A stretch of DNA of 64,000 nucleotides from Naegleria gruberi (GCA_000004985.1 GG738873.1); one strand, 5' to 3'; shown: positions 34,823 through 60,971, counted from the stretch's first letter. Translations and numbers: made by a program. The notes: generated from the letters alone by a model not told the origin.

Positions 34823-35216
34823 ATAGCAGAAGTAGACGGAAAGTGAAATTATCCACTTTGTCTTTGCACTTCAAATAATCAGTCAAATGTTTGATTGTTA
34901 TCGGATCTCTTTGAAGAGAAACTTTATCCGAAAGTGAATAAAGCTTAAGGACACCTTTTTTAACTTTAGGGTAAGAGACAGAAATATTAATTGTTCTGCC
35001 ATCAAGGTTAGCAAAGAATTGAATAGCTGCTTGCACAGTATTTGCTTTGTAACCTTGAACATTAACCAGAAGGTAAGAGATGTAATATTCAATAGCTAAA
35101 GGATTATCAATGGTAAGATCGAACACATTGATAAACCAAAGAAAACCACCATAAATCCTGTTGTAGGTTCTGAAGGTTTTTTCACCTATTGAAGAGAGAA
35201 TACTGATTTCTCTCAT
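34823..35216 (-). CDS. 5' part of putative tyrosine recombinase ORF (131 codons open, no stop, runs into gap). Translation starts MREISILSSIGEKTFRTYNRIYGGFLWFINVFDLTIDNPLAIEYYISYLLVNVQGYKANTVQAAIQFFANLDG...
   Basis: Hand translation of the minus strand from the ATG at 35216-35214. The ATG overlaps the pol TGA as ATGA (-1 frame). The pattern looks like the N-terminal SAM-like/core-binding domain of tyrosine recombinases and sits where the YR sits in DIRS elements. The ORF track does not list it because there is no stop before the Ns. Confidence 0.5.
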
Positions 35217-37267
35217 TGTTTGAATAACTTGCCATGCACTTGAACAACCAGGAAATTCGAATTCTCGAACTTGTCTTGCAACTCTGATAAGGGCGTTATT
35301 ATAAGCATCTTTCTCGAAACAGTTATCATTCTTTCTGATATCTTTAGCAAGACTGGAAACCATATCGAAGAGGGCCAATCTGGAACCACAAATGTCGCTT
35401 TGGCTCCTGACTTGATGCAGTGAACTAGAGCTTGAGATATCAGACCCAGAGGAGGCGCACAATAGCTCATCAGATTTTGTTCCCATGGGTTCAGAAATGT
35501 GTCGTTCTCTATCCATGAATTGAATTGAATTGTTGTGGTTGATTCCAATGTTGCGAATCTGTCCACGTGGTGTTCTCCAAATTCTGTCTGAACTAGATTC
35601 AATAGTTCTTGAGAGGATTTCCATTCTGTTAGACGACTCAGTCTGTCCGCCAAAATGTTTTCCTTTGAGGGAATATAAATCACTTTGGAAATCCACCATT
35701 TTCTTCTCATTAGAATTTTGTAGAGATCTCTGGCTATTTGTGAGAGTTCTTCGATGACTCCGTAACCTCTCCTTATATAAGATATTGCTGTTACATTGTC
35801 GCCTCTTATCTCGAATGCTTGACCAGGACCATAAAGGTTTAATTGATCTGCTTGTGTGAAGAAAATGAGGAGTGTTTTTAACTCTTTGACATTGATGTGC
35901 TCTGAGGAATTGAATCTTCCAATTGTAATGGTTGATTCTGCGTGAATTCCATAACCTGTTGGGCAAGCATCTGAATTCACTCGAATCGGGTTCATTGAGT
36001 TCAGTTCGAATGGAACTCCACTGTTTTCCTGAATCAGAGTTTTCAATATCTTGAGGTCTTTGGTTGCACCTCTGAATATTCTCATCGATGCGTGCCAGGA
36101 TTTGTCGTTTACTACTTTCACCATATCCTTTCGAAGACGAGCCAGAAATGGTGCAAAATAATGGTTTGATAGGGTTAGAAATTCCATCTTCCCAAGAAAC
36201 TGAGCCACTTTCTTGCAAGCTACATATCTGTTCAGTTGGTTCGCTGACAAGAAGTCTTGGATCAGTTTTATCGCAGTGGCTTGTTTGTTGAGTGGAATTT
36301 TTACCAAACCTGATATTAAATCCAATTCCAGACCCAGAAATTCTATGCATTGACAAGGTGTCAACACACTTTTCTCCTTCTGTATAATCCATCCTAATGT
36401 TTCTAGGTCTTTCAAGATTATCTCTGTGTGTTGTTGGGTAGTTTCCTTGTGGTTGCTTAGAATCAATATATCGTCGATGTAAATGAATACCAAGATGCCC
36501 TGCCTTCTCCACTTGGTCACTAGTTCCTTCATTATCTTGGTGAAGTTTCTGGGAGCTTGACTTAGACCAAATGGAAGGCATTTGAATTGGTATACAAGGC
36601 TCTTGTACTTGAATCCCAGAAGGTGTCGATGACTCTCTCTGATGGGAACATGAAAATAGCCTTTCTTCAGGTCTATCTTTGTTGCCCACATTCCTTTCTG
36701 AACAAACTTCAAACATTTTTGAATGTTGTCCATCTTGAACGAAGTATCCTTGATCCCCAAGTTTACTTTCCTGAGATCCAGAATAAAACGAAACTGATCT
36801 GAGCCCTTCTTGGGGACAATGTTTATTGGATTGAGTACCGTAGATTTGTTTCCAAGTTCGATGACATTGGAACTCAACATCTCTTGGATTTCTTGATCCA
36901 TCCAAGAGGTCTCCTTTGGAGAGAAATTCTTCCCCCGCTTGAATTCTTTCCAAAGGGTGGGATTTGAGTAGATTGGAACTCCATTCCGAATCCAATCCAC
37001 TATGAATGGGTTGAAGTTGTAACTCTCCCACTGAGTTACAAACTTGCCAAGACGACAACCCACCAAGTCAGAGGTCTTTGCTGAAGGATCCTCCACCGTT
37101 GTTGTTGTTGTACTTTGGTTTTGAGTCTCCTGATTTTTGAAAATTGGAGTTACTCTTGTAAGACTTAGAGTAGCTGTTGTGTTGAGAAGTGTAGGGTTTG
37201 TTCAACTTCTCTTTCATTTTGTTGGGTTTTTGAATCTTTCCAACAAAAGCAGTCTTGATAACAGCTT
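35213..37267 (-). CDS. DIRS-like pol: reverse transcriptase, RNase H, DIRS-type C-terminal domain. The frame stays open about 35 codons upstream of the listed GTG start, up to the 50-N gap
   Basis: 627-aa ORF with RT motifs (FRFILDLRKVN, PFGLSQAPRNF, YIDD), RNase H (DAS...G, ADRLSR) and the DIRS post-RH domain. The listed start codon at 37096 is GTG. Confidence 0.75.
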
Positions 37268-37317
37268 NNNNNNNNNNNNNNNNNNNNNNNNNNNNNNNNN
37301 NNNNNNNNNNNNNNNNN
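37268..37317. other. 50-N scaffold gap inside the DIRS-like element (between gag-like and pol ORFs)
   Basis: n run. Confidence 0.99.
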
Positions 37318-37320
37318 TAA

Positions 37321-38040
37321 CTAATTCTGTGATTTCATGATGTTAGCAACGTTCATTGGGTGACTTAAAGCGAAATGGAGTAGTCTAGATTTCAAATGCA
37401 ACATTTCCATCATCTTTTGCAAGCCCTTTGATTGGATTTCTTGCAAACGGGGATAAGTACGATGATTATGAATAACGGATTCAAATCTAGCCATTAATGA
37501 TTGAACTCTATTCAAAAGAGCATCATTGGTTTGATAACGACGAAGAGTTTTGGCTGAAACAAAACTTAAGACATCTCCATCGGCTAATCTGTCGCCAACT
37601 TCATAGTGTCTTCTAATCTCCTTGATTGTTGACATACCCCAATGTTTACCAGTGGAATCTTCAGCAGAATCCTCATCAGAGTTGTCATCAAGTTGATCAG
37701 CTTCTTGAAGGATGGGTGGAACTGCTTCAAGATGTTTAATTCTCTCACCCAATGAAGTGATGGCGTGAAGAATAGCATCTAGGTTCTTTTCAGAACCACC
37801 TTGGTTGTTATCCAAGGGTTTAGTTTGTGATGAAACTGGGTCATTTCCAGAACCACTTTGATTATTATCTAAAGGTTTAGTCTGTGATGACACTGAACTA
37901 CCTTCATCAATTGCTGGGATATATCCAGACTTGTAAGTTGAAACGCTGTCAGCTGACTTACTAGCAGAAATAATTTTTCTGATAGCAGTCACTGTTTTGC
38001 CAGGGGTGTCAGCAATGATTTTGCTTGGTGTGTTTACCAT
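37321..38040 (-). CDS. gag-like ORF of the DIRS-like element (239 aa, no zinc knuckle, Ser/Thr/Gln-rich internal repeat SSQTKPLDNNQ x2)
   Basis: Position immediately upstream of pol on the same strand. Helical C-terminal half. No independent homology recognised. Confidence 0.45.
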   Translation of the reverse strand: MVNTPSKIIADTPGKTVTAIRKIISASKSADSVSTYKSGYIPAIDEGSSVSSQTKPLDNNQSGSGNDPVSSQTKPLDNNQGGSEKNLDAILHAITSLGERIKHLEAVPPILQEADQLDDNSDEDSAEDSTGKHWGMSTIKEIRRHYEVGDRLADGDVLSFVSAKTLRRYQTNDALLNRVQSLMARFESVIHNHRTYPRLQEIQSKGLQKMMEMLHLKSRLLHFALSHPMNVANIMKSQN

Positions 38041-38141
38041 GTTTCTTAATTTTTTTGAGCATAAAAATTATTTATCAACTCAATTTTATTGTTTACAATT
38101 TGTCGAAATACTAACGTTGCATCGTTCCTCGCAACTAGCCA

Positions 38142-38159
38142 ATATATATATATATATAT
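38142..38159. repeat. (AT)9 microsatellite
   Basis: Direct reading. Confidence 0.9.
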
Positions 38160-38680
38160 TCTCAAAGTCATTTACAACTAATAAAGTGAAAATATACAAC
38201 ACTTGACTTACCAAGGTAACCAAATTACTAGATTCTAAAGGAAATACAATATATATTCATGGTATTACTCATCATACTCAAGTTTCTATTATCTTAAAAT
38301 TTTATTACGGCCAATTCAAACAGGCAACAAAAGCACACATTATCAGACATTGTAATAACAAATACTCAACCTTTTGTTGTTTATAATATGTGAAATCTAT
38401 TGACAGAACAAAATGAAATACAAAAAGTCTACTAATAAAGAGTTCTTACCAAGAAATCACCGAAAAACTCATGTAAAATAAAGAATAGAAAATCACTTTT
38501 AAGGGGTAAATAAATATAATCTGAACAGATAAATGAATTTGCGAGGAATTATGATAAAAAGGATGTAGTGAGAATGGGATTTGATAAAGAGAGGATAAGT
38601 AAAAAACATGATGAGGAGTATGATGAAGAATAAAAGGGAAATGATTTTTCTAACATAGATAAATATAATTTTTGTTCACA

Positions 38681-38700
38681 TATATATATATATATATATA
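38681..38700. repeat. (TA)10 microsatellite
   Basis: Direct reading. Confidence 0.9.
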
Positions 38701-38799
38701 TTCACCCAATAATTTATCAAAAAAATAAAATACAAAAAATCAATTCTCATATAACAACAAAATAAATTGTGAAAATATACAAAAATTATATTCAAACTC

Positions 38800-40187
38800 G
38801 AATTTAAATCGAGAAACACACTAAACCACCAAACGGTACTACTAAGCTTAAAATCTCTAATCCAACTCAAGTCACGGAACACTTTGACAAGATGTTCAAT
38901 ACTGCACTCGGAGACTCTAATTTGGATGAGAAATTAATCACAGGACACCCCAAACTTGCAGAATTTAGGGTTCCACCTGCTAACCCAAGTTTGCTTGCGA
39001 ATGTGGTTAGCCGTATGAAACACTCAATGCCTGGTAGTAATAAGGTGCCAATGATTGTTTCAAATTTATGAATGAAGATACTCTCCTTACCTTCTTTAAC
39101 AAAATATTTGTTGATGGTAACCCCTTCCCTGATTCTTGGAAAGCAGGTCTGCTACTTCCCCTACCTAAAAACTCGAATCCCAAATCACTCTCTGACTTCA
39201 GACCTATAGTTGTTCTCCCTATTCACTCAGCCCAAAGAGACTTCAAACGCCTTGCCTCAACTACTGACCAGCTCGTGGTGGTCTATCATTTCCGAATATA
39301 GAAAAACAAAGAAACCATTATTCATGTGCACCCTTGATATTAAGAATGCATATGGAAGTGTGGTCCATAGCAAGTTGAAATCTATCCTTCCCAGGATAGG
39401 TTTTAATAAGTCAGTAACCAATCTTGTTATGAAAATGGTTACGGGGCACAGAATCAAAGTGCTTGCTAATGGCTCAACATCACCAGCTTTTGAAGCAAGG
39501 TTTGGAGTCCCACAAGGGGATCCTATTAGCCCTCTTGTGTTCAATCTATACTTTAACACTGTTACTTCCGTGATTGATTCATATCAAGGAGCTTCCATTT
39601 GTGGAGAAAAAGTAGTTCTCCTTCTGTATGCAGACGATATCTTGGTTCTTTCTGAATCAGCTTCAGAATTAACCAATATACTTACTGAATTAAACTCAAT
39701 AGCCCTACAACTAGGGCTGCACTTCGCCACACACAAGTGCAAAGTATTTGGTGTCACTGCATCTGGCCTCAGATCTCGAGCAAAAGTTTACGTAAATGGT
39801 ACAAACATTAATAGTTCTAAGAATAATCCATTAGAGTATCTGGGTGCCTCCTTTATTAATAACATGTCTTGGTCTCCCTCCGATGATAAGGTTCTCTTAA
39901 AAGTTGAATCCAGATTACTAAATTTCAGACCAAAACACTTGAGACTCGGTCCAATGAGGAACGTAATATTATCTAAGGTGCTTTCTGTGCCTAGATACCT
40001 CTCAAGCGTAAATGCTATTCCACTTTCACTATTGGAAAAATTGGAAGTCAAAATTAGTGGAATTATTAAGAAAAGAATTGGATGTGACAACAGGCTCTCT
40101 AAAGCCGTTATCTATGGTGATAAATCCCAGGGTGGACTTGGGCTTTTATGTCCAGTTGATATAAGTCACGTGGAAAGGATGGCATCT
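38800..40187 (+). mobile_element. LINE copy 1: 5'-truncated, partly decayed non-LTR retrotransposon (RT half through the C-terminal region; 3' end lost in the gap)
   Basis: About 97-98% nucleotide identity to 41500-42900 of copy 2. Relative to copy 2, the 5' part has small indels, an approximately 70-nt deletion and frame breaks (ORFs 39068..39301 and 39210..40253). Confidence 0.85.
39210..40187 (+). pseudogene. RT motif A to thumb fragment of LINE copy 1. The frame is intact here and includes the 115 bp that copy 2 lacks
   Basis: TLDIKNAYGSV, GVPQGDPISPLVFNL and LLLYADDILVLS motifs. Continuous reading into LGLHFATHKCKVFG...VYVNGTN. Confidence 0.8.
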
Positions 40188-40237
40188 NNNNNNNNNNNNN
40201 NNNNNNNNNNNNNNNNNNNNNNNNNNNNNNNNNNNNN
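40188..40237. other. 50-N scaffold gap at the junction of the two tandem LINE copies
   Basis: n run. Followed by A-rich aaaaagaaaaaa, which may be the tail of copy 1. Confidence 0.95.
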
Positions 40238-40388
40238 AAAAAGAAAAAACTAGGCAGTCCTTTTAAGTCTGCTATTGTTCTTCGAAACGTGAATCTGAGA
40301 GTTTCCACTACTAAGGCAGCCGATTCCCCATGTATGGCTGTAGATAAAAGTGAACTCTCAGAGGAGGACAATTAAACATCACCTTAGA

Positions 40389-42461
40389 ATGGCCAGTTGC
40401 AACCTCTCGTCCTTTTCAATCGACAAACAGGCCATTCTTCTTCACCACATCAAGAACGAGAGGCTTGATGTTATTAACATCCAAGAATCGCACTGGGACT
40501 CCAGCGTGTTCAAGGATAATGTTAGTAAGGCTGCTAAGTTCTTTTCCCCTTGCAAGATTTATGGAACTCCATGTAGTCCAAATGATAAGGCAGCCGGAAT
40601 CCTCACTATTATCAAAGGTACTCTGCATAGAAAGGTAATTTCTTTTGAAGTGCTAGTTTCAGGCAGAGTTTCATGTTTAAAATTAGAAACTGATTATGGT
40701 GTTGTCAACATCATTAATTGGTACGGTGTGCAAAAGTATAGTAGTGAATTCCAGAACATCTTAACTAAGCTCTCAGAGTATTTACTGGAAGCTATGTTTC
40801 ACTCGGAACATGTTATTATAATGGGTGACCTTAATATCAACACCTTGTTTGGCTCGGAGAAGAGGAAAGCGAGCGCCTTCAATGAATGGTTACAAGTATT
40901 TAACCTGAATGATCTTGTTCCATGTCCGACTCGCCCCTCTTTTAAGTCTAGTAGAGGTAGCAAGAAGCCATATTCTACCAGACCAGATCATATTGTTAGC
41001 TCCCTACTCTCCAGCCAACTGTGGGATGTTGAAATGTTTCTTCAACACAAAATGGTCTGTGCTGAGTTTCAATTATTCGATTTGGAGAGCACTGCTAAAT
41101 TTGAGGAGGTTTTCAATATGTCTAAATTCAATAACAAAGCGTTTACTGAGAATCTAGACTGCATCAATTCAAAGATTGCTTCCTTTTCAGGAAAAGATCT
41201 TCAATCCTTCTTAACTGAGCTGTGCTCTCAGTATCATTCGCCGATTAGGAAATCTCCTTTGATTACTGATATTAAAGAATATAGAGATTTAGAGCGTATT
41301 CGGAGGGCTCTCCAAAAGGCTAAATGGTCTAACCGACCGAATAAGATAGCCAAGGAATTTATGGCTACTGTTGGTGTAGATAATGCAATTGTAGCCTATA
41401 AAGATGTGGTGAAGAAACAACAGAACGTTATCCTCAGTGCTCTTAAAGCTAGAAAAGAGGCTTTCAAAAAGGCAGTTAATAACCTTAAAAGTAGTGTTCC
41501 TTATAGATACGCGTTTAAATCGGAGCGTAACTCTAGCTCTGTGTTTAAAATCTCTGATCCAACTCAGGTCACGGAACACTTTGAAAAGATGTTCAATACT
41601 GCACTCGGAGACTCTAATTTGGATGAGAAATTAATCACAGGACACCCCAAACTTGCAGAATTTAGGGTCCCACCTGCTAACCCAGGTTTGCTTGCGAATG
41701 TGGTTAGCCGGATGAAACACTCAATGCCTGGTAGTGATAAGGTGCCAATGATTGTTTTCAAATCTATGAATGAAGATGCTCTCCTTACAGTGTGTTCAAT
41801 CTTTAACAAAATCCTTGTTGATGGTAACCCCATCCCTGATTCTTGGAAAGCAGGTCTGCTACTTCCCTTACCTAAAAACTCGAATCCCAAATCACTCTCT
41901 GACTTCAGACCTATTGTTGTTCTCCCTATTATTTATAGAATTTTTTCTTCCTATGTTAACTACCACCTCATGAACAAGGTGGACGAGGAAAAAGTGATTC
42001 ACTCAGCCCAAAGAGGCTTCAAACGCCTTGCCTCAACTACTGACCAGCTCGTGGTGGTCAAGTCTATCATTTCCGAATATAGAAAAACAAAGAAACCATT
42101 ATTCATGTGCACCCTCGATATTAAGAATGCATATGGAAGTGTGGTCCATAGCAAGTTGAAATCTATCCTTCCCAGGATAGGTTTTAATGAGTCAGTAACC
42201 AATCTTGTTATGAAAATGGTTACGGGGCACAGAATCAAAGTGCTTGCTAATGGCTCAACATCACCAGCTTTTGAAGCAAGGTTTGGAGTCCCACAAGGGG
42301 ATCCTATTAGCCCTCTTGTGTTCAATCTATACTTTAACACTGTTACTTCAGTGATTGATTCATATCAAGGAGCTTCCATTTGCGGAGAAAAAGTAGTTCT
42401 CCTTCTATATGCAGACGATATCTTGGTTCTTTCTTCAGATCTCGAGCAAAAGTTTACCTAA
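40389..42461 (+). CDS. LINE endonuclease-RT ORF. It terminates prematurely (..YADDILVLSSDLEQKFT*) because of the deletion
   Basis: See motifs above. A stop follows 9 codons after the deletion junction at about 42434. Confidence 0.8.
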   Translation: MASCNLSSFSIDKQAILLHHIKNERLDVINIQESHWDSSVFKDNVSKAAKFFSPCKIYGTPCSPNDKAAGILTIIKGTLHRKVISFEVLVSGRVSCLKLETDYGVVNIINWYGVQKYSSEFQNILTKLSEYLLEAMFHSEHVIIMGDLNINTLFGSEKRKASAFNEWLQVFNLNDLVPCPTRPSFKSSRGSKKPYSTRPDHIVSSLLSSQLWDVEMFLQHKMVCAEFQLFDLESTAKFEEVFNMSKFNNKAFTENLDCINSKIASFSGKDLQSFLTELCSQYHSPIRKSPLITDIKEYRDLERIRRALQKAKWSNRPNKIAKEFMATVGVDNAIVAYKDVVKKQQNVILSALKARKEAFKKAVNNLKSSVPYRYAFKSERNSSSVFKISDPTQVTEHFEKMFNTALGDSNLDEKLITGHPKLAEFRVPPANPGLLANVVSRMKHSMPGSDKVPMIVFKSMNEDALLTVCSIFNKILVDGNPIPDSWKAGLLLPLPKNSNPKSLSDFRPIVVLPIIYRIFSSYVNYHLMNKVDEEKVIHSAQRGFKRLASTTDQLVVVKSIISEYRKTKKPLFMCTLDIKNAYGSVVHSKLKSILPRIGFNESVTNLVMKMVTGHRIKVLANGSTSPAFEARFGVPQGDPISPLVFNLYFNTVTSVIDSYQGASICGEKVVLLLYADDILVLSSDLEQKFT

Positions 42462-43648
42462 ATGGTACTAACATTAATAGTTCTAAGAATAATCCGTTAG
42501 AGTATCTGGGTGCCTCCTTTATTAATAACATGTCTTGGTCTCCCTCCGATGATAAGGTTCTCTTAAAAGTTGAATCCAGATTACTAAATTTCAGACCAAA
42601 ACACTTGAGACTCGGTCCAATGAGGAACGTAATATTATCTAAGGTGCTTTCTGTACCTAGATACCTCTCAAGCGTAGATGCTATTCCACTTTCACTATTG
42701 GAAAAATTGGAAGTCAAAATTAGTGGAATTATTAAGAAAAGAATTGGATGTGACAACAGGCTCTCTAAAGCCGTTATATATGGTGATAAATCCCAGGGTG
42801 GACTTGGGCTTTTATCTCCAGTTGATATAAGTCACGTGGAAAGGATGGCATCTGTCTGTAGGTTTGTCAATTCTACCTCTCCTATCACCCAAAAAATCGC
42901 AAGAGCCATGATAAATAAGGCGCTCAAGGGTGAAACTACAGATTCACTGTGGAAAAATGCTGCCGCTACAATGAAAGATCTGAAATATTACTTCAAATCC
43001 ACAGATAATGGATGGGTCTTGTGTAACCATACCAATCACAAGCCTGTCTCCAACCTTAGAAATGCTATCATTGAAACTCAGCGATCCAAAAAAATTATCA
43101 ATAAGTTGGGCCAATTAGACAATGACTATAATTGGCATAACAGCACTCTCTCCTTCTGGAGAAACTCTCTCTTGTCTTATTATCAGCAAAGACTCCTCTA
43201 CTTTAATCTCCACCACTCAATTTTACTAGGTGATGACAGTACTTGTGACAAATGTAATGTCAAGGAAGATTGGACCCATGCATTCCAAACTTGTCCCAAA
43301 TGCAATCCTGAAAAGGATGAACTGTATGCCACATGGGACGCTATCTCCCAGAAATTTAGTATTAACAAGATTCGTTTCCCTCCTGATATCTCAGAATCCT
43401 CTCAACTTAGGATAGAATTTGATGGTCGTTGCTCCCGTAATTACTGGCTTAACTGGTCTAAGCGCAAAAAAATACCTAAGTATCTGGCCCTAGAAGTCTA
43501 CAAAGCACTAGCTATTTATTTGGAAAATTGCTACAAGAACTCAGTGTGGTACAACCGTCCCAATGCAAGCTTCACTATTAACAGGAAATACCTCTCTGCC
43601 TACCACAGGCAGGCTCAGTCTAACCAACCACTTAGCGTCAACCCATAA
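42437..43648 (+). pseudogene. LINE copy 2 downstream reading frame (RT thumb plus CCHC C-terminus), disconnected from the EN-RT frame by the 115-bp deletion
   Basis: Copy 1 positions 39654-39768 are absent from copy 2; 115 is not a multiple of 3. The downstream frame matches the copy 1 frame. Confidence 0.8.
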
Positions 43649-43716
43649 CACTTAAACGCTGAACCGAAACTTACTGGTTGTAGACCTCGTCTCTCAGGTC
43701 TTTACGATACAAGAGA

Positions 43717-44214
43717 ATGAGAGCATTTTATCTCTAAACACAAATAAAAATTAATTGCACAGATTTAAAAATTTGTGATTTGTGTTTGTGTAGACAGACC
43801 ATTTTATCTTGAAAACACAAAAGTATTTTATTAAAATAATAAATTATTGTGGTCTTGAATCTTAGGTTGTTTTCTATGAATCTAGTAGTAAAAGTTCATT
43901 CGTCGTTGATCTTGAAATATGTGATCCGATATCAATATTGTTGTTGCAAGAATTGGACATGAATCGGGTTCTAATGGTTGCTGATTTCTTCTCCCGTTTG
44001 ATGAAGGAGAAGTTTAATACATTTTTTATTAATTAAATATTAAAAAATGTAAGAATGGAATAATTTTAAATAAAAATATGTATTTGTGCAAGATAAAATG
44101 GCCTGTCTACACAAACACAAACACAAATTTGTGAAAATATTTTAGCACAATTTAGCACAAATATTCATGTGTAATTAATTTTTTATTTGTGAATAGTGAT
44201 AAAATGCTCTCAAT
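43717..44214. repeat. Foldback/MITE-like element. Imperfect terminal inverted repeats of about 95-125 nt (43717-43812 versus 44089-44214, termini TGAGAGCATTTTATC...) flank an AT-rich spacer of about 275 bp
   Basis: The reverse complement of gagcattttatctctaaacacaaataaaaattaattgcacag...gtgtttgtgtagacagaccattttatcttg aligns to caagataaaatggcctgtctacacaaacacaaacacaaatttg...taattaattttttatttgtgaatagtgataaaatgctc. Confidence 0.7.
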
Positions 44215-44261
44215 AAATATAACAATTTATTTTTTATTTAATAAATATTACAATTTATTTT

Positions 44262-47200
44262 TTATTTTACCATGATTGTCAATGTATCTGCAATTAAACT
44301 TGTTGACAAGTAGGTATTGTATCCAATAGTTTCTTTTGTATATCTAATGGCATATCCATATGGGAAATAAGTCCAATTATTGCCATTGCACCCATCAGAG
44401 GAGTGAATTACACTGAGCCAATCTCTTTCACTACCACAACCACCAAAACCATATTGAATTATGAAATGCCTTGGAGTTATTGAAGGACCAGTCAATTGCA
44501 TGGTAAAAGCAGTATAGCTATTAACATAAGAGCTTAATCCGTAAGAGGAAGATTGTATTTTCTGAGGTGTAAACCAATTTTTGAAATCAGTACCTGCTAC
44601 GTTGAATAGAATATAGTGTTGCATTGCTGAGTCCTTGTTAATTTCGATCTTTACAGTACCAAACGAACTCCAATAATTCAAGAGGTCACCTATTAATACT
44701 GTATCTGGAGTATACTTGTCCAATGTTCCCCTAATATTGATCTTTGAATTCCAAACATCTGCAGGTCCATATGGTTGACCAGTTGCAATCTTATTAACAA
44801 GTGTGTAACCACCTCCATCAGTGGTCATGTCACAATACACGTTGAACGGAGCTACTGATGGATCTGGTTGGATAGTATAAACACCATCACCAACATTACC
44901 ACCATAGACTCTGCTAGAGTTTGTTGGGTATCTATAATCTTGGCACGTTCTGGCATAGGTAAAATCAGCAAATTTCCTTCCTTCACCACATCCAACTATA
45001 CCAACAATTGAACAGGAAGGTCCATAACGAGAAGGCCCACAAAAACATTGTCCATCAACGCAAACTCCTGCATAGTTGCAAGTAACACCAAGATTAGGAG
45101 CAGAGAAGCAATAAAGCTTTCCAGTTGGTACGTTATTGTCTGATGATAGACAGTAACTATACACCGAGCCATCTGTACTCCAGATAGAAACATTACTAGT
45201 GGATATATACTCATTGCTCCAGTAACTGTTGCTATACATTCGGGATGGTATTGAATTAGAATAGTTCGTATTCCAATACAACGACAAAGGAATGGTATAG
45301 ATGTCATGTCTTGAGAAACTGGAGGTTTCTTGCTCACAGAATACAGCTAGTGGAGGAAATCCTAATGATCCTTGAATAAGATAAAGACCTCTACCTGTCA
45401 TACCTTGATATGTTTTTGAAGAATTTGTTGGATTACTATATTCTGCACAGTTCTTGGCAAATGTTCCATCTGCATATCTTCTTAATCCATTAATAGAAAC
45501 AACACCCACCAATTCACAGAATTTACCAAAATGGCCATATTCACATTGGCATGTATCATAATCCACACAAACTCCTTTGGAGGAGCAAACAGATTTGCTG
45601 GATGCTTGAAAATTGTTACAATATACGCAGAAAAATGGGTTTTGCTTGCACCATTCTGAGGTTCTGTTTTCCCCATCATATACAGCCATCCATGACCCAA
45701 CTGGATCTTCCTTTTCTGCAACGGCAAAATATGGACCAGCGTTGCCATCGGTTGTGTTGGATCCACCGTAAATATATATATAACCACCTTGGGAGGATAT
45801 TATTCCTGAACTTGTCATATAGTATGGAAGTAAACCAAATGTCATTTCCCACTTCAATGGATTTTCTGTAGTAGCTCTAAAAATGTTGAATGAAGATGAC
45901 TCAAATGTTGTGGAACCACCAAATAGATAAATGTAATCACCAACAACTTCAATAAATGCAGAATACAATGGCACAGGAATGACAGAACCATTTACAATCT
46001 CGAATTGTGTAATATTTGACAATGGAGCCCTCATGATAGTGTCTAATATAACTGGAGTGAAGCTTGGGACATTGGAAGGGTCCTCAATATCTGTCAGTGG
46101 TCTATAACTGAATATTCTAGAAATGCCACCAAATATATAAACATAATCACCAGATTGCATTATCATACCCGATGCAACAGGGACTGGGAGAGAAAATGGA
46201 GTCTTTTCCCATTGTTTCAAATCATATAGAGGACATTTGTAAATTGCATTTGACACGTTATTGTTAACAATTCCCCCAAACAAGTACATTTCCTCATTGT
46301 GTTTGAAAAAGTGAGAGTTATGAATTGAATCTGGGAATCCCTCATTTGATGTGATATTATACTCTATCATCGACCAAACATTTTCATTTTTAGAGATGTT
46401 TCTAGTGTACATGCTGAATCCATTATTTACAAGTGATGGCACTGTGTCATCAGCTTTTAACAAATAACCAATCTCACCCAAATCAAAGTAAGTCATCTTC
46501 CTCATATACCATGGCAAGGTCATGGTGACATGATTATTCATTCTAACAAACTTTCCACTTGGACTAAGAGAATAAATTTTAGAGATTGGCGTTCCGGTCC
46601 AATGGTATGGTTTTGTGTCATAGCAAGAACTTCCAGCAAATATTTCAATATTAGAACAATAACCCACAGCCATAACTGTCCCATCTGCTAGGAATAAATA
46701 ACTATTATCTTCATTACTAGTTATGTCAACCACTGGTTGGAATGAATAATAGACTTTGGTAGGAACAAGAACATTGGAATTAGTTAAGCCAGTACCTGTC
46801 TGACCAGCGTCACTCTTACCCCAAGAATATAGAGTTCTATCTTTGCAATAAACAAAATTATGGAAAGCTTTCGTGTGTATCATTGTGGCAAAACAAGTAG
46901 TGTTTGGTCCAAATTGAGATAAAATCTTTGGAAGTAATCTGTTAGTGGTTGAGTTATCTCCAACTTGGTAATAATTATTAAGACCCCATGAATAGACTCT
47001 TCCACTTGTAGTTAGAATCAAGTTGTGTCCATATCCGCATTGAATATCAGTAATTGTTTCATTGATATGTTTTGTTATAACTTCAATAGGTTCTCCTTGA
47101 GATACATTGTTATTAGTACCAAGTTGTCCCCATCCATTGTAACCCATTGAATACAGTCTATTGGTATTCGACAATACAAGTGCATGCTTAAAACCAGCAC

Positions 47201-48286
47201 AAACCCTAACCATAGTTTGATTCATTAAGGCTGCATACCTGTAAACAGAAAAAGGCCTGTTTTTTTCATCCCAAGTTCTATCCCCCAGTTGACCTTGATC
47301 GTTAGCACCCCAGCTCCATAGTTTTCCTGATGAATCAATTGCGTAGGCTGAAAAATATCCTAGTGCGATTTGCTCAATTTTTGCACCTCTAAATCCATTT
47401 ACAAATGTTGGGACAAACTTTGTTTTGGTTCCTCCGGTAGCCAATTGTGAACGTTCATTTAACCCAAAAGCAAAAACTCCCTTGTTTGTGAGAATAAGGT
47501 TGGAAAATTGATTTGCCTCGATTTGAAGAATATCCAATCCATCTAAAAGTTCAACAGGAGCATTATATATTAATCTAGTATCATTGGTTAGATGAATTCT
47601 TCCAAGATTACCATTTTCAAAAACTCCAGTTGAGTACAATTTACCGTTGGGCATTAAAATTAATACATGTTTTAACCCAGCACTAATTCTATTTCTAATT
47701 CTTTTAATCGGCAGTCTTGTGTCAAATCTTTCGTAAACCCCTCTTTTACAATTGACAGTAAAATGATCTTGGTTTGTTTCATTTAAATTTGTTTCTCTAA
47801 AATACAATTCTTCACCATAGTCTTCTACGGTGTAATTCTTAACAATTTCAGTTTTTTTCGAAGTCAATTCATACTTACATTCATGACATCAGAAGATTTT
47901 CTTCCCAAATCCTCGATACTGTTTAATCCCAATGAAAGAATATATGAATTTTCCAGTTCCCAACTCAATACCTTTGCAACATTTTGATTGTTTTTGGAAA
48001 CCATAGATTCGAAAATAGTCTTATTGATATTAAGTTGTTCCAGGATTGGAGCTGCTAAATTCAATGCGTCCTCCTTGTCAATAGCTATTGGCTTGGCTCT
48101 ACTGCTGACAAATTTGTCGCGCTCCTCCTGAAGATTGGTCATAACGTTGATAAAACTCTTTTGTTTATCCTTCCAACTTTTAACCAAGGACATTTCATAT
48201 TGTTGTTCCTGATTGTTGATGTCGATATATCCACTTATCTCAACCGTATCATATATTAAAAGTACTAGTGGTAAAGTTGTCATCAT
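44262..48286 (-). CDS. Paralogue A of the RCC1-Kelch family, two exons: join(48286..47879, 47837..44262) with a 41-nt GTAAGT...TTAAG intron. Domain order: hydrophobic N-terminus MMTTLPLVLLIY, about 120-aa helical region, roughly 6 RCC1 repeats, LPWY motif linker, roughly 5 Kelch repeats, EGF-like Cys module, truncated FReD-like segment, second EGF-like module, fibrinogen-related domain
   Basis: RCC1 signatures (GYNGWGQLGTNNN, WGANDQGQLGD, HALVLSNT). Kelch signatures (EMYLFGG, YVYIFGG, YIYLFGG, YIYIYGG). FReD signature CQDYRYPTNSSRVYGGNVGDGVYTIQPDPSVAPFNVYCDMTTDGGGYTLV. The exon-1 ORF 47864..48286 ends in ATG AAT | GTAAGT, and the acceptor restores NYTVEDYG of the 1201-aa ORF in frame. Confidence 0.8.
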
Positions 48287-58401: not shown

Positions 58402-60971
58402 TTAATTACAAATGGTTGGATATTTTGAACAAATTGTTGAAAGGGCTGTAGTTGTACCACCAACCCAACCATCAGGGAAGCTTGTTCTGGTGGTTCTATA
58501 AATGTTAGGACCAACCAAACTGTTGCCTGTGGAAGCACCTGAGAACACGACATCATTAGCACTACTTGAAAAGACAGAAGAACCTGAATTGACATGGAAT
58601 GTGAGTTGGGATTTAAGGGTCCAGGAAACAAAATCAGATGTTGAATAAATCTTGTTTGATTGTGATGAAGAAAGGGATGTCAGACCTCCAATTATATAAT
58701 AATTACTGTCTGTGTCAACCTTGTAGACAAAAGCAGAATGTAGGACTGAAGGGAACTTGGAATTAAACATGATTTCCCAGTTTCTCATATCTGAATCTAC
58801 GCTTGTTCTTAATACAGTTTGAGAAATAACGAGATTTTGAATTGCATCAACATCTCTAGAAGAGTTGAAAAGATGTGTTTGCTTAATACCCCCAATGATA
58901 TACACATATTGTGTATCAGAAATCAGCATTCCTGATGCCAATGGGAACGGAAGCTTCTGGTCTAACAATTCCCATCCAAACAATGGGTCAGAAATAGGAG
59001 CTCTGTAAATTGAATTTGATATTTCATTATTAACAAACCCACCGAGCATATATATATATTCCTTGATTCTAATGATGTGTGTACTGTAGATTGATTTCCC
59101 ATAGAGCGTGTTATTGAGAACTGAGGTTGGAGATACTTGCTGCCATGAACTGTAATAGCTACCAGGATTGGTACTGTTGTAGTATCCAAATTCTAGACCA
59201 TTTCTTGATAAGAAACTCTTATCAGATTTAAGTAAATAACCTTTTCCGTTCAAATTGAAATATGGACTTTGTCTCAAATACCATGGTAAATAGGTAAAAG
59301 TGTACATGGAATCTTTTGTAAAGCTGTTAGAAACAGAACCAATTGACCTGAATACAGTTGTGGAGAAAGTACTGCCCGAGTAGTAGATGGATCCATCCAT
59401 CGTTTGAAGAGCAAAGCTTCCCGTTGAGCTACTAGCAATATCCAAAATGGAATCAACAAACTCTGTGCTAAAAGACGAGTAAAGAGTAGGTGAGGTCACA
59501 GTGGAAGCAGTTGAACCGAGTCCCAATTCACCATTTGAGTTTCTTCCATATCCGTACATTTTACCATTTGTGCAAATGAGTATTGTACTATAAAACTTTG
59601 AGTAAACTTTTTTAACACTACAAGGTGCGCTTAGGAGTTGAGGAGTGAACCTTGTGGTTGTGGATCCATCACCCAATTGACCATAGTTGTTGTATCCCCA
59701 TGTAACAACTTTTCCATCTGTAGTCAAAACAACAACGTGGTTAGATCCGCATTGAACATCAAGGATGTTAACTGCAGAGAGAGCACCAGTGAGTGGAATT
59801 GCTACAGGTTTACTTTTAAAAGAAGGATCTGTTACACCAATGCCTAATTGACCTAGAGAATTATCTCCAAATGAAGCTAACGTATTGTCACTTGTAAGGA
59901 CCACAACAAAACTATCTCCAGCGCAGACTTTGACAACTTGCTTGTTTTTTAAAGGTCCATTATTCTTTAGCACCTTAAAAGGTCTAAATTTATCTTCTTG
60001 GGTGCTGTCACCAAGTTGTCCTAAAGAGTTATCACCCCAGGCCCACAACTCGCCATCAGTTGTGATGGCGTACGAGCTTCTGCCTCCTGATGCAATTTGC
60101 TCAACTTTCTTCCCCAATAATCCTTTTACTTTAACTGGATTCAAACTATCAGCTTTGTTTCCAGTTCCTAATTGACCATTAGAATTGGAGCCAAAAGAGA
60201 ACAATCCCTCATTAGTAAGTACAAGATTTGTACGAGAGTATGTTTCTACTTGGTAGATAGTTTCAGAAGCAATAGGAATAGAGTCATTATACCTTAGTGC
60301 AGAACCGGAATAGGTTCTTCCAAGTAGCCCTACCTTTAAAGAGTCAATTCCAGTGGAATAGAGTTTTCCATTTCCTAAAATTACTATAAAATGTTGCTCA
60401 CCTCCGGAAAGGAAATTTCTAATTTGTTTTACAGTTCCTTGTGAGGTCTCTAAATTGAACAATGAATTGCCACTGTTTAGAAATCTTCCAGTTGGAACTT
60501 CTTCATTGCTGCCAATACTTTTGGTATAGGTAAAATCTTGTGATGTCAAAATGTCTTTTGAAATCATTCTCTAAGTGCAAACTAATTAATTTAGAATTTT
60601 TGTAAATTACTTACAGTGTGAAATTTTGTTATTGAGCTATTCGAAAAAGCAATGACCTTATTAATCATTTGCGTGACAATGCCAAGCTCTTCAAGCTTAG
60701 ACTTAATATCTTCCAAGGATTTTGATTTCAAAGCACTAAGGTTGTTTATGTAGTCTGCTGTAACTCCATACTGGGAAGCAAATGCAGATATACCATATGT
60801 ATCGTACAGAAAAGAAATTGAACTAGTAAATTCCAAATGAAGGTTTTTTGAGGTTTCTAAAGGAGGAATAAGTGTGGTGTTGATGTAATCAATTACATTG
60901 GAATGGGATACTCTTTGATTGAGACTCATCCTTAAGCCTTCCTCATAGTCCTCATATGTAAGGCCATCCAC
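58402..60971 (-). CDS. Paralogue B of the RCC1-Kelch family: join(60971..60615, 60570..58402) with a 44-nt GTAAGT...CACTTAG intron. Exon 1 is open upstream to about 61031 with no ATG, so a further 5' exon is likely. Ends after the Kelch propeller with no EGF or FReD tail
   Basis: RCC1 repeats (FGSNSNGQLGTGN, WGDNSLGQLGDST, WGYNNYGQLGDGSTT). LPWYLRQSPYF linker. Kelch repeats (YIYMLGG, YVYIIGG, YYIIGG). Exon-1 ORF 60591..60971 ends ..KFHT | GTAAGT. Same architecture as A and C. Confidence 0.75.

What the first reader, a model, noticed from the sequence alone, without database searches (positions are those of the whole stretch)
38800..43716. Tandem head-to-tail LINE copies, one 5'-truncated and decayed, the other carrying a 115-bp frameshifting microhomology deletion
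Copy 1 (38800-40187) and copy 2 (40238-43716) are about 97-98% identical over their shared region, but each is damaged in a different place. Copy 1 has lost its 5' half and has small indels and a deletion of about 70 nt near its start. Copy 2 lacks the 115 nt present at copy 1 positions 39654-39768, flanked by a TCAG microhomology. That splits its APE-RT ORF from the thumb/CCHC region and adds a premature stop (..LVLSSDLEQKFT*). The duplicated antisense ORFs in the track (39257..39559 with 41999..42340, and 39788..40090 with 42454..42756) are a by-product of this repeat. A head-to-tail array of an element that inserts by target-primed reverse transcription is unusual. It suggests insertion of a second copy into the poly(A) tail or 5' end of the first, or tandem duplication after insertion. 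The junction is exactly where the assembler placed 50 Ns, so the copy number may be under-represented.
Basis: seen in the sequence. Interest (0 to 1): 0.5.

Follow-up and report, generated by a model that had tools for sequence, protein, structure and literature searches.

The report
Two broken LINE copies flanking a gap
Two damaged copies of one LINE retrotransposon lie in the same orientation near the end of a Naegleria gruberi scaffold, but their supposed head-to-tail joint falls in an unsequenced assembly gap, so this is ordinary transposon debris and not a demonstrated tandem array.

Summary
The sequence facts hold. Window 38848-40187 (copy 1) matches 41545-42853 (copy 2) at 93.5-98.3% identity. 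Copy 2 lacks exactly the 115 nt found at 39654-39768, which shifts the frame and gives ...LVLSSDLEQKFT*. Copy 1 has four deletions of its own (1, 9, 69 and 5 nt). The window is Naegleria gruberi; the first 34,822 positions are N padding. The element is an endonuclease-RT-CCHC LINE. Putting the 115 nt back into copy 2 gives one 1124-aa ORF2, collinear with an intact 1133-aa ORF2 of a sister family, so the 115 nt is ancestral. Corrections to the finding: there is no microhomology at the deletion breakpoints. Copy 2 does not start at 40238; it probably enters the gap inside an upstream ORF1, so 'aaaaagaaaaaa' would be coding (KKKK) and not a poly(A) tail. The junction is therefore unsequenced, and a true tandem would need about 2.5 kb or more hidden behind the 50 Ns. 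Differences between the copies are enriched for synonymous changes (15 of 29, p=0.004), and the derived amino-acid changes sit mostly in copy 1. This favours two separate retrotransposition events, an older truncated copy and a younger one, over a DNA duplication or alleles. The annotated gene NAEGRDRAFT_68513 is this pseudogene with an invented intron. Low interest.

The parts
38848..40187 (+). LINE copy 1. It is a 5'-truncated ORF2 fragment starting at about ORF2 residue 386. It carries four private deletions (1, 9, 69, 5 nt), two of which shift the frame. Its 3' side is cut by the contig end, not by biology.
   Evidence: blastn and MAFFT against copy 2; indel coordinates; translations
39654..39768 (+). 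The 115 nt kept in copy 1 and deleted in copy 2. It encodes ...ESASELTNILTELNSIALQLGLHFATHKCKVFGVTASGL, the RT segment just after the YADD motif.
   Evidence: The segment is conserved in sister family B. It is needed for the RVT_1 match to reach profile position 203/205 instead of 164/205.
40188..40237 (.). Assembly gap of 50 N. It hides the 3' part of copy 1, whatever junction exists, and the 5' part of copy 2.
40238..40375 (+). Probable 3' end of ORF1 of copy 2. It is 45 open codons, KKKKLGSPF...DKSELSEEDN, followed by the stop TAA at 40373-40375. A 13-nt spacer separates it from ORF2.
   Evidence: Open frame. Chance of 45 open codons in one given frame is about 0.05. Sister families have ORF1, then a 14-nt spacer, then ORF2, and their ORF1 C-termini share a K/R-rich stretch plus LS[DE][DE]D. 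There is no significant pairwise similarity, so this is an inference.
40389..42461 (+). Copy 2, ORF2 from its ATG to the premature stop. The endonuclease domain is about 40389-41080, with motifs QES at 40476-40493, GDLN at 40824-40835, RPDH at 40980-40991 and LQH at 41040-41051. RT starts at about 41874, and YADD is at 42408-42419.
42434..42435 (+). Junction of the 115-nt deletion in copy 2 (...TTCTTTCT|TCAGATC...). No microhomology at the breakpoints.
42435..43648 (+). Copy 2, the rest of ORF2 in the shifted frame, up to the natural stop at 43646-43648. It holds the end of RT, the thumb-like region and the CCHC motif CDKCNVKEDWTHAFQTC (43244-43294).
   Evidence: collinear with the intact 1133-aa family-B ORF2
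43649..43717 (+). Minimum 3' UTR of copy 2. The true 3' end is undefined. There is no poly(A) and no target-site duplication was found.
43718..44212 (.). A 495-bp foldback/MITE-like element next to, or inserted in, the LINE 3' end. Its terminal inverted repeats begin GAGAGCATTTTATC and it is flanked by AAT on both sides.
41792..42480 (+). The 689-nt GT-AG 'intron' of the public gene model NAEGRDRAFT_68513 (XP_002676178.1). It skips the RT core and the frameshift. This is an annotation artefact on a LINE pseudogene.
   Evidence: P0001 equals the translation of 40389-41792 joined to 42482-43648

Best explanation
These are two dead copies of one low-copy, two-ORF LINE family of Naegleria gruberi. 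ORF2 encodes an AP-type endonuclease, a reverse transcriptase and a CCHC motif. The copies were made by two separate retrotransposition events and lie in the same orientation in a transposon-rich stretch at the end of a scaffold.

Copy 1 is the older one. It was 5'-truncated when it inserted, so it was dead on arrival, and it has since picked up four small deletions and most of the derived amino-acid changes. Copy 2 came later from a master element that was still under protein-level selection. It reaches at least into the end of ORF1, and was then inactivated by a single 115-nt deletion in the RT domain. That deletion has no microhomology at its ends, so it looks like end-joining or a replication error.

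Shown here: the copies, their lesions, the direction of each lesion, the domain content and the excess of synonymous differences.

Inferred: the order of the two events, the ORF1 reading of 40238-40375, and real physical adjacency. The junction is not in the assembly. Whether the copies abut head-to-tail, are separated by other DNA, or were joined wrongly by the scaffolder cannot be decided from this sequence.
For: - Organism and locus: there is a 100% match to N. gruberi XP_002676178.1 on a 461,873-bp scaffold.
- Element type: Pfam gives RVT_1 at E=3.9e-33 plus weak Exo_endo_phos hits. A family profile matches human L1 ORF2p across endonuclease and RT at E=1.8e-92, and ExoIII/APE1 at 1e-16 to 1e-8. 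The endonuclease motifs are conserved.
- Sister family B (L001/L002, 61% aa identity) has ORF1 of 524 aa, a 14-nt spacer and an intact ORF2 of 1133 aa.
- Direction of the lesions: patched copy 2 gives a 1124-aa uninterrupted ORF. All five indels are deletions relative to family B.
- Independent origin: of 29 substitutions, 15 are synonymous. pN/pS is 0.28, with p=0.0012, or p=0.004 after correcting for the transition:transversion ratio.
- Relative age: 7 of 8 polarisable amino-acid changes are derived in copy 1. Over the shared 1.3 kb, copy 1 has 4 indels and copy 2 has 1.
- Transposon-rich context: a DIRS-like RT plus Dam-type methyltransferase ORF lies at 35213-37096(-), and a MITE-like foldback at 43718-44212. 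Ordinary genes follow from 44262 onward.
Against: - The counts are small: 29 substitutions and 8 polarised changes, with 7:1 giving p=0.07.
- The 5' block is more diverged than the rest (16/376 against 13/849, p=0.007). I cannot explain this. It may reflect recombination or gene conversion.
- TE content in Naegleria is very low. LINEs are 0.25% of the N. lovaniensis genome (PMC6125883), and total TE content of N. gruberi is estimated at 0.28% in bioRxiv 10.64898/2026.06.24.734286. Two independent insertions of a rare family within a few kb would be very unlikely by chance. So adjacency needs a targeting or regional preference that I have not shown, or else it is a scaffolding error.
- The contig holding copy 1 (37318-40187) ends in repeats on both sides: a DIRS-like element on the left and the LINE on the right.
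- No target-site duplications and no defined 3' tail were found.
Confidence: 0.58

Rival explanations
1. Scaffolding artefact. The two copies are real and independent, but they sit at different loci. Alternatively, contig 37318-40187 is simply misplaced. In this reading, mate pairs falling in the near-identical LINE sequence (and in the DIRS-like repeat at the other gap) pulled a 2.9-kb contig into the end of this scaffold.
For: - The copy 1 contig is short. It is bounded by two 50-N gaps and ends in repeats on both sides.
- It lies within 5.4 kb of the scaffold start.
- Both gaps are the same placeholder length.
- Chance adjacency of a rare LINE family is improbable given the low TE load (PMC6125883).
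Against: - About 0.8-1.5 kb of the copy 1 contig (37318-38847) is not LINE sequence and could anchor genuine mate links.
- The orientation is the same, and copies differing by 2-6% can be told apart in Sanger reads.
- I have no read-level data either way.
Confidence: 0.25
2. A true head-to-tail dimer made in one target-primed reverse transcription event. The reverse transcriptase would copy one full-length RNA (copy 2, downstream), jump to the 3' end of a second LINE RNA, and stop early (copy 1, upstream, 5'-truncated).
For: - The geometry fits: the upstream copy is truncated and the downstream copy extends at least into ORF1.
- Two RNAs from different masters would also produce a synonymous excess.
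- End-to-end template jumping by LINE RTs is established for R2 (my own knowledge, not checked here).
Against: - Copies of equal age should decay equally. Here copy 1 has 4 indels against 1, and 7 derived amino-acid changes against 1.
- No shared target-site duplication was found around 38848 and 43717/44213.
- The junction is unseen.
Confidence: 0.09
3. One insertion followed by a DNA-level tandem or segmental duplication, with the lesions arising afterwards.
For: Same orientation and high identity, with each copy carrying private lesions.
Against: - After a DNA duplication both copies drift neutrally. Observed synonymous changes are 15 of 29, against 27% expected (p=0.004).
- Copy 1 has its own 5' truncation point next to unrelated flank sequence, while copy 2 continues upstream.
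Confidence: 0.05
4. The two 'copies' are two haplotypes of a single locus, or reads of one locus assembled twice, laid end to end by the assembler.
For: A placeholder gap between contigs whose ends are homologous to each other's interior is what an unmerged overlap can look like.
Against: - Divergence is 2-6% with five indels.
- The copies have different 5' structure.
- The synonymous excess is not expected of alleles of a dead insertion or of sequencing errors.
Confidence: 0.03

Closest known systems
AP-endonuclease-type LINE (non-LTR retrotransposon) with ORF1+ORF2, with human LINE-1 ORF2p as the solved reference
   Same: - N-terminal ExoIII/APE-like endonuclease, central RT with YADD, and a C-terminal CX2CX7HX4C motif.
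- In the sister families, an upstream ORF1 with a weak RRM hit and a coiled coil.
- 5' truncation of one copy.
- A profile including this element aligns to L1 ORF2p residues 4-962 at E=1.8e-92.
   Different: - Only about 17-21% identical to its nearest non-Naegleria relatives.
- As a single sequence, the RT hits R2 proteins better than L1 (1.8e-29 against 3e-15). I therefore did not assign a clade.
- No poly(A) tail is visible.
- The last endonuclease catalytic motif reads QH instead of DH in families A and B.
Hebe, the subtelomeric jockey-clade LINE of Adineta vaga (PMC2861651)
   Same: A low-copy LINE in a TE-rich, gene-poor edge region whose copies are inactivated by internal deletions of 12-200 bp.
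   Different: - Hebe deletions carry 5-14-bp microhomologies, and Hebe copies are not 5'-truncated.
- Here the 115-nt deletion has none at its breakpoints. Two of the copy 1 deletions have only 3 nt (ATT, GTC). One copy is 5'-truncated.
Head-to-tail LINE arrays: Drosophila HeT-A/TART/TAHRE telomeres (PMC5537684), Giardia GilM/GilT (my own knowledge), and insertion into the tail of a resident copy
   Same: Same-orientation neighbouring copies close to a scaffold end.
   Different: - No junction is sequenced and there are only two copies.
- There are no telomeric or terminal repeats at the scaffold start.
- There is no A-tail at the one visible 3' end.
Partial tandems of Penelope-like elements (PMC11167929, PMC8557442)
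   Same: A 5'-truncated copy upstream of a longer copy is the typical Penelope arrangement.
   Different: The element has an N-terminal AP endonuclease and a LINE-type RT. No GIY-YIG domain was detected. It is not a member.

Membership tests
Non-LTR (LINE) retrotransposon, AP-endonuclease type | N-terminal ExoIII/APE-like endonuclease with the catalytic motifs | tested here: met
   - The Pfam Exo_endo_phos and Exo_endo_phos_2 hits are below their cut-offs (21-22 bits).
- A 19-sequence profile that includes this protein matches ExoIII/APE1 at 1e-16 to 1e-8 and the L1 ORF2p endonuclease.
- E33 (QES), G146-D147-x-N149, D200 and H220 are aligned and conserved.
- The Asp before the final His is Gln.
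Non-LTR (LINE) retrotransposon, AP-endonuclease type | Reverse transcriptase domain with the YxDD active site | tested here: met
   RVT_1 at E=3.9e-33, covering profile positions 3-203 of 205 in the patched ORF. YADD is at 42408-42419.
Non-LTR (LINE) retrotransposon, AP-endonuclease type | C-terminal Cys-His (CCHC) motif after the RT | tested here: met
   CDKCNVKEDWTHAFQTC at 43244-43294. It is conserved in family B (CDSCQTAEDWTHVFSSC).
Non-LTR (LINE) retrotransposon, AP-endonuclease type | Upstream ORF1 encoding an RNA-binding or coiled-coil protein | tested here: inconclusive
   - Only 45 open codons are visible before the gap, with no significant similarity to family B ORF1.
- They do share the C-terminal K/R-rich stretch plus LS[DE][DE]D motif and the stop-spacer-ATG layout.
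- ORF1 is present in sister families (524 and 487 aa), with a weak RRM_1 hit at E=0.006.
Non-LTR (LINE) retrotransposon, AP-endonuclease type | 5'-truncated copies, no LTRs or TIRs | tested here: met
   Copy 1 starts at about ORF2 residue 386 next to unrelated AT-rich flank. The self-comparison shows no terminal repeats other than the two copies themselves.
Non-LTR (LINE) retrotransposon, AP-endonuclease type | Defined 3' tail (poly(A) or short repeats) and target-site duplications | tested here: inconclusive
   There is no A-tail after the stop at 43648. No shared word of 7 nt or more between the copy 1 5' flank and 43640-43725, and only a 9-nt AT-rich match beyond the MITE. The copy 1 3' end and the copy 2 5' end both lie in the gap.
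L1 clade specifically | RT phylogeny placing the element inside the clade | not tested
   No labelled reference set of LINE clades was available. Among solved structures, the single sequence prefers R2 RTs and the profile prefers L1 ORF2p. Clade left unassigned.
Head-to-tail tandem LINE array | Two or more copies adjacent and in the same orientation | tested here: met
   True as scaffolded: both copies are on the + strand, with copy 1 upstream. This depends on the scaffold being correct.
Head-to-tail tandem LINE array | A sequenced junction joining the 3' end of one copy to the 5' end of the next | not testable with these tools
   The junction would lie in the 50-N gap at 40188-40237. No other assembly or contig of this locus could be retrieved.
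Head-to-tail tandem LINE array | For the telomeric type: terminal position with telomere repeats | tested here: not met
   The scaffold starts at 34823 with non-repetitive sequence, and there are no tandem repeats there. A scaffold end is not necessarily a chromosome end.
Penelope-like element | GIY-YIG endonuclease C-terminal to a TERT-like RT | tested here: not met
   Pfam finds only Exo_endo_phos (N-terminal) and RVT_1.

The most novel reading that the evidence does not exclude
This Naegleria LINE family might preferentially insert at the 3' end of resident copies, or at a specific subterminal site. It would then build head-to-tail arrays at chromosome ends, as the telomere-associated LINEs of Drosophila and Giardia do. 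That would explain why two independently retrotransposed copies of a very rare family sit side by side in a genome with a very low TE load.
Probability: 0.07. Interest if true: 0.5.

Novelty: new member of a known kind. Interest (0 to 1): 0.15.

Why it matters
It matters little for biology. This is routine decay of a LINE: 5' truncation, small deletions, and a frameshifting deletion in RT.

It has practical value for annotation. The public protein XP_002676178.1 / NAEGRDRAFT_68513 is a LINE pseudogene rescued by an invented 689-nt intron. N. gruberi holds at least three related two-ORF LINE families that I could not find described in the searchable literature.

The only point of wider interest is that two independent insertions of a rare family lie next to each other. 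If long reads confirm this, it would suggest targeted or regional insertion in a very TE-poor protist genome.

Tried and rejected
**Attempts to span the gap or find other copies**
- I looked for another assembly of the locus by exact-protein look-up of P0001, P0003, four ORFs inside the LINE copies and the neighbouring 1201-aa ORF. All returned nothing.
- A scan of JGI metagenome contigs for relatives of ORF2 gave 37 pattern matches, none confirmed.
- I followed the 46-aa members of the P0002 cluster (P0033-35) to seven contigs, L003-L009. They are unrelated to the LINE, so the clustering was wrong.

**ORF1 tail, ends and endonuclease**
- I tested whether 40238-40388 is homologous to the family B ORF1 tail. 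It is not significant at protein level (score 29, shuffle mean 31) or DNA level (96 of 500 shuffles reach the score). The ORF1 reading therefore rests on the open frame, the layout and a short shared C-terminal motif.
- I looked for target-site duplications around the pair and found none.
- I looked for telomere-like repeats at the scaffold start and found none.
- A single-sequence search of the endonuclease domain against PDB found nothing. A profile was needed.

**Literature**
- I found nothing on LINE clades of Naegleria. The 2010 genome paper is not held.

**Considered and rejected**
- Nested insertion of copy 2 into copy 1: there is no LINE sequence after 43717.
- A Penelope-like element: there is no GIY-YIG domain.
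- A dual endonuclease (Dualen-like, with a restriction-like domain after the CCHC): I saw no convincing PD-(D/E)xK motif by eye, and did not test this formally.

Full report
**What the window is**

Positions 1-34822 are N, so they are padding. Real sequence runs from 34823 to 64000, with two 50-N gaps at 37268-37317 and 40188-40237. A protein search with the repaired LINE ORF returned a 100% match to 'predicted protein [Naegleria gruberi]'. This is XP_002676178.1 / EFC43434.1, NAEGRDRAFT_68513, on a 461,873-bp scaffold. The finding therefore lies 4-9 kb from the start of an N. gruberi scaffold.

**Check of the observation**

blastn and MAFFT both show the repeat. The matching blocks are 38848-39223 with 41545-41930 (93.5%), 39221-39653 with 41997-42434 (97.5%), and 39769-40187 with 42435-42853 (98.3%).

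- Copy 2 lacks exactly the 115 nt found at copy 1 positions 39654-39768.
- Copy 1 lacks 1, 9, 69 and 5 nt relative to copy 2.
- The copy 2 ORF (ATG at 40389) ends ...YADDILVLSSDLEQKFT* at 42461. The reading frame resumes in another phase and runs to the stop at 43646-43648.
- The two pairs of antisense ORFs are at the stated coordinates.

Some details in the finding are wrong.

- Convincing homology of copy 1 begins at 38848, not 38800.
- The first block is 93.5% identical, not 97-98%.
- The deletion has no microhomology at its breakpoints...TTCT|GAAT...GGCC|TCAG... TCAG(A) does occur 3 and 9 nt inside the left edge, but deletions between those repeats would remove 112 or 106 nt, not 115.

**What the element is**

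Inserting the 115 nt of copy 1 between 42434 and 42435 gives a single uninterrupted ORF of 1124 codons.

- Pfam finds RVT_1 (E=3.9e-33, profile positions 3-203 of 205) and weak N-terminal Exo_endo_phos hits. Without the patch, the RVT_1 match stops at profile position 164.
- A profile built from this protein and 18 relatives matches human LINE-1 ORF2p across endonuclease and RT (E=1.8e-92), and ExoIII/APE1 for the N-terminal 230 residues.
- The endonuclease motifs QES, GDLN, RPDH and a final QH are aligned.
- A CX2CX7HX4C motif lies at 43244-43294.

The closest relatives come from Naegleria or Naegleria-like DNA. A metagenome contig (L001) and a Logan contig (L002) carry a sister family, which I call B. 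It is 61% identical in ORF2. Its layout is an ORF1 of 524 aa, a 14-nt spacer and an intact ORF2 of 1133 aa. Family B is about 99% identical to N. gruberi XP_002681148.1. A third ORF1, P0038 (32% identical), sits on another N. gruberi scaffold. ORF1 has a sub-threshold RRM hit and a coiled coil. I did not assign a LINE clade, because no labelled reference set was available.

**Direction of the lesions**

Family B keeps the segment encoded by the 115 nt (SETAQELTQILSRLNSIALQLGLHFATHKCKVFGVTKSG). It also keeps all four segments missing from copy 1. All five indels are therefore deletions.

**One event or two**

Over the shared 1.2 kb there are 29 substitutions, 15 synonymous and 14 non-synonymous. 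pN/pS is 0.28. Given the observed ratio of 17 transitions to 12 transversions, 27% synonymous would be expected under neutrality. The excess gives p=0.004.

Copies that arose by duplicating DNA, alleles of one dead insertion, or sequencing errors would all differ neutrally. The excess means that much of the divergence built up while the protein was under selection. In other words, the copies descend from different states of an active master.

With family B as outgroup, 7 of 8 polarisable amino-acid differences are derived in copy 1 (p=0.07). Copy 1 also has 4 of the 5 indels. The simplest history is therefore:

1. An older, 5'-truncated insertion (copy 1), dead on arrival, which has decayed neutrally since.
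2. A later insertion (copy 2) from the still-constrained lineage.
3. Loss of copy 2 function through the 115-nt deletion.

A single-event dimer made by template jumping between two different RNAs is not excluded. It fits the unequal decay less well.

The higher divergence of the 5' block (16/376 against 13/849, p=0.007) remains unexplained.

**The junction**

The junction is not in the sequence. Copy 1 stops at the contig end, at a point equal to copy 2 position 42853, so about 0.86 kb of its 3' part is missing.

Copy 2 does not start at 40238. The frame is open from the first base after the gap for 45 codons (KKKKLGSPF...DKSELSEEDN), up to a stop 13 nt before the ORF2 ATG. This mirrors the layout of family B. 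The tail shows no significant pairwise similarity to family B ORF1. It does share a K/R-rich stretch followed by LS[DE][DE]D near the C-terminus with both other Naegleria ORF1s (...KKADLSDDDQ*...ALTLSDDDTDMNGASDQQ*).

I put about 75-80% on this being the end of ORF1. In that case 'aaaaagaaaaaa' is coding sequence, not a poly(A) tail. Consistent with this, copy 2 has no A-tail at its own 3' end.

If the copies truly abut, the 50 Ns stand for about 2.5 kb or more. No target-site duplication was found.

**Context**

The first 9.4 kb of the scaffold is transposon-rich.

- The ORF at 35213-37096(-) combines RVT_1 with a Dam-type methyltransferase domain. This is the hallmark pol of DIRS1-like elements (PMC3266345).
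- The LINE copies follow.
- Then comes a 495-bp foldback/MITE at 43718-44212, flanked by AAT on both sides.
- From 44262 onward the window holds ordinary genes: RCC1/Kelch/EGF, kinase, ankyrin, PROPPIN and SAM.

Published estimates put TE content in Naegleria very low. LINEs are 0.25% of the N. lovaniensis genome, and repeats are 5.1% of N. gruberi (PMC6125883). One preprint estimates TEs at 0.28% of N. gruberi. Chance adjacency of two insertions of one rare family is therefore unlikely. Either there is a regional or target preference, or the short contig bounded by repeats was misplaced.

**Attempts to resolve the gap**

Exact-protein look-ups for the gene models and for several window ORFs found nothing, and neither did a metagenome scan. 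A Nanopore-based re-assembly of N. gruberi exists (PMC12695648; see also PMC12344493).

**Annotation side-product**

The public model NAEGRDRAFT_68513 is exactly the translation of 40389-41792 joined to 42482-43648. It is the LINE pseudogene with a 689-nt GT-AG 'intron' (41792-42480) that removes the RT core and the frameshift.

**Comparison with known systems and verdict**

The element works like any AP-endonuclease LINE, and its defining domains are met.

- Inactivation by internal deletions has a close precedent in Hebe of Adineta vaga (PMC2861651). Unlike Hebe, the main deletion here lacks microhomology.
- Membership in the class of head-to-tail LINE arrays cannot be claimed. The defining junction is unsequenced, and no telomeric repeats are present.
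- It is not a Penelope-like partial tandem, because it has no GIY-YIG domain.

The finding is a correct reading of ordinary transposon decay. The most interesting part, the tandem arrangement, rests on an assembly gap. Interest is 0.15. In novelty terms it is a new member of a known kind.

Noticed in passing
window 34823-38040 (minus strand): A DIRS-like retroelement lies at the very start of the scaffold. ORF 35213-37096(-) has RVT_1 (E=9e-26) fused to a Dam-type N6-adenine methyltransferase domain (E=4e-5). An upstream 239-aa ORF (37321-38040, with a 57-bp repeat x1.9 at 37787-37895) has no Pfam hit. The element is cut by the scaffold start and by the 50-N gap at 37268-37317. No tyrosine recombinase was identified.
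   Followed up: partly
window 43718-44212: A 495-bp foldback/MITE-like element with long imperfect terminal inverted repeats (GAGAGCATTTTATC... / ...GATAAAATGCTCTC), flanked by AAT on both sides, which may be a 3-bp target-site duplication. Removing it recreates an AATAAA at the join. There is no second copy in the window, and the superfamily was not determined.
   Followed up: partly
window 41792-42480 (gene model 40389-43648): The public protein XP_002676178.1 / NAEGRDRAFT_68513 (856 aa) is the LINE pseudogene, with a 689-nt GT-AG intron invented by the gene caller to skip the RT core and the frameshift. The sister-family model XP_002681148.1 likewise fuses ORF1 to the ORF2 N-terminus.
   Followed up: yes
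window 41040-41051; L002 ORF2: In the last endonuclease catalytic motif (SDH in most LINEs and in APE1-type enzymes), families A and B both have QH (FLQHK). Family B nonetheless has an intact 1133-aa ORF2. I did not test whether this endonuclease is fully active.
   Followed up: no
window 44212-44267: A 28-bp unit (AATAAATATAACAATTTATTTTTTATTT) is duplicated in tandem immediately after the MITE. It overlaps the stop codon (44262-44264) of the minus-strand 1201-aa gene.
   Followed up: no
window 44262-47867 (minus) and 58402-60567 (minus): The first is a 1201-aa uninterrupted ORF that combines an RCC1-like propeller, Kelch repeats, tenascin/teneurin-type EGF repeats and the start of a fibrinogen C-terminal domain. 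This is an unusual mix for a protist. A second RCC1-like ORF (721 aa) lies 10 kb further on.
   Followed up: no
window 38848-39223 vs 41545-41930: The 5' third of the shared region is about 2.8 times more diverged than the rest (16/376 against 13/849 substitutions, p=0.007), at both synonymous and non-synonymous sites. This may be recombination or gene conversion between lineages. It is unexplained.
   Followed up: partly
L001 4651-5552 vs L002: In the metagenome sample ERR1078381 the same family-B element occurs in two contigs that are 99.9% identical up to L001 position 4651. After that point L001 continues with unrelated AT-rich sequence while L002 keeps the intact ORF2. This is either a 3'-deleted second copy or a chimeric contig.
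   Followed up: partly
window 1-34822: The first 34,822 positions of the window are N. The scaffold starts at 34823, so only 29 kb of the window is real sequence.
   Followed up: yes
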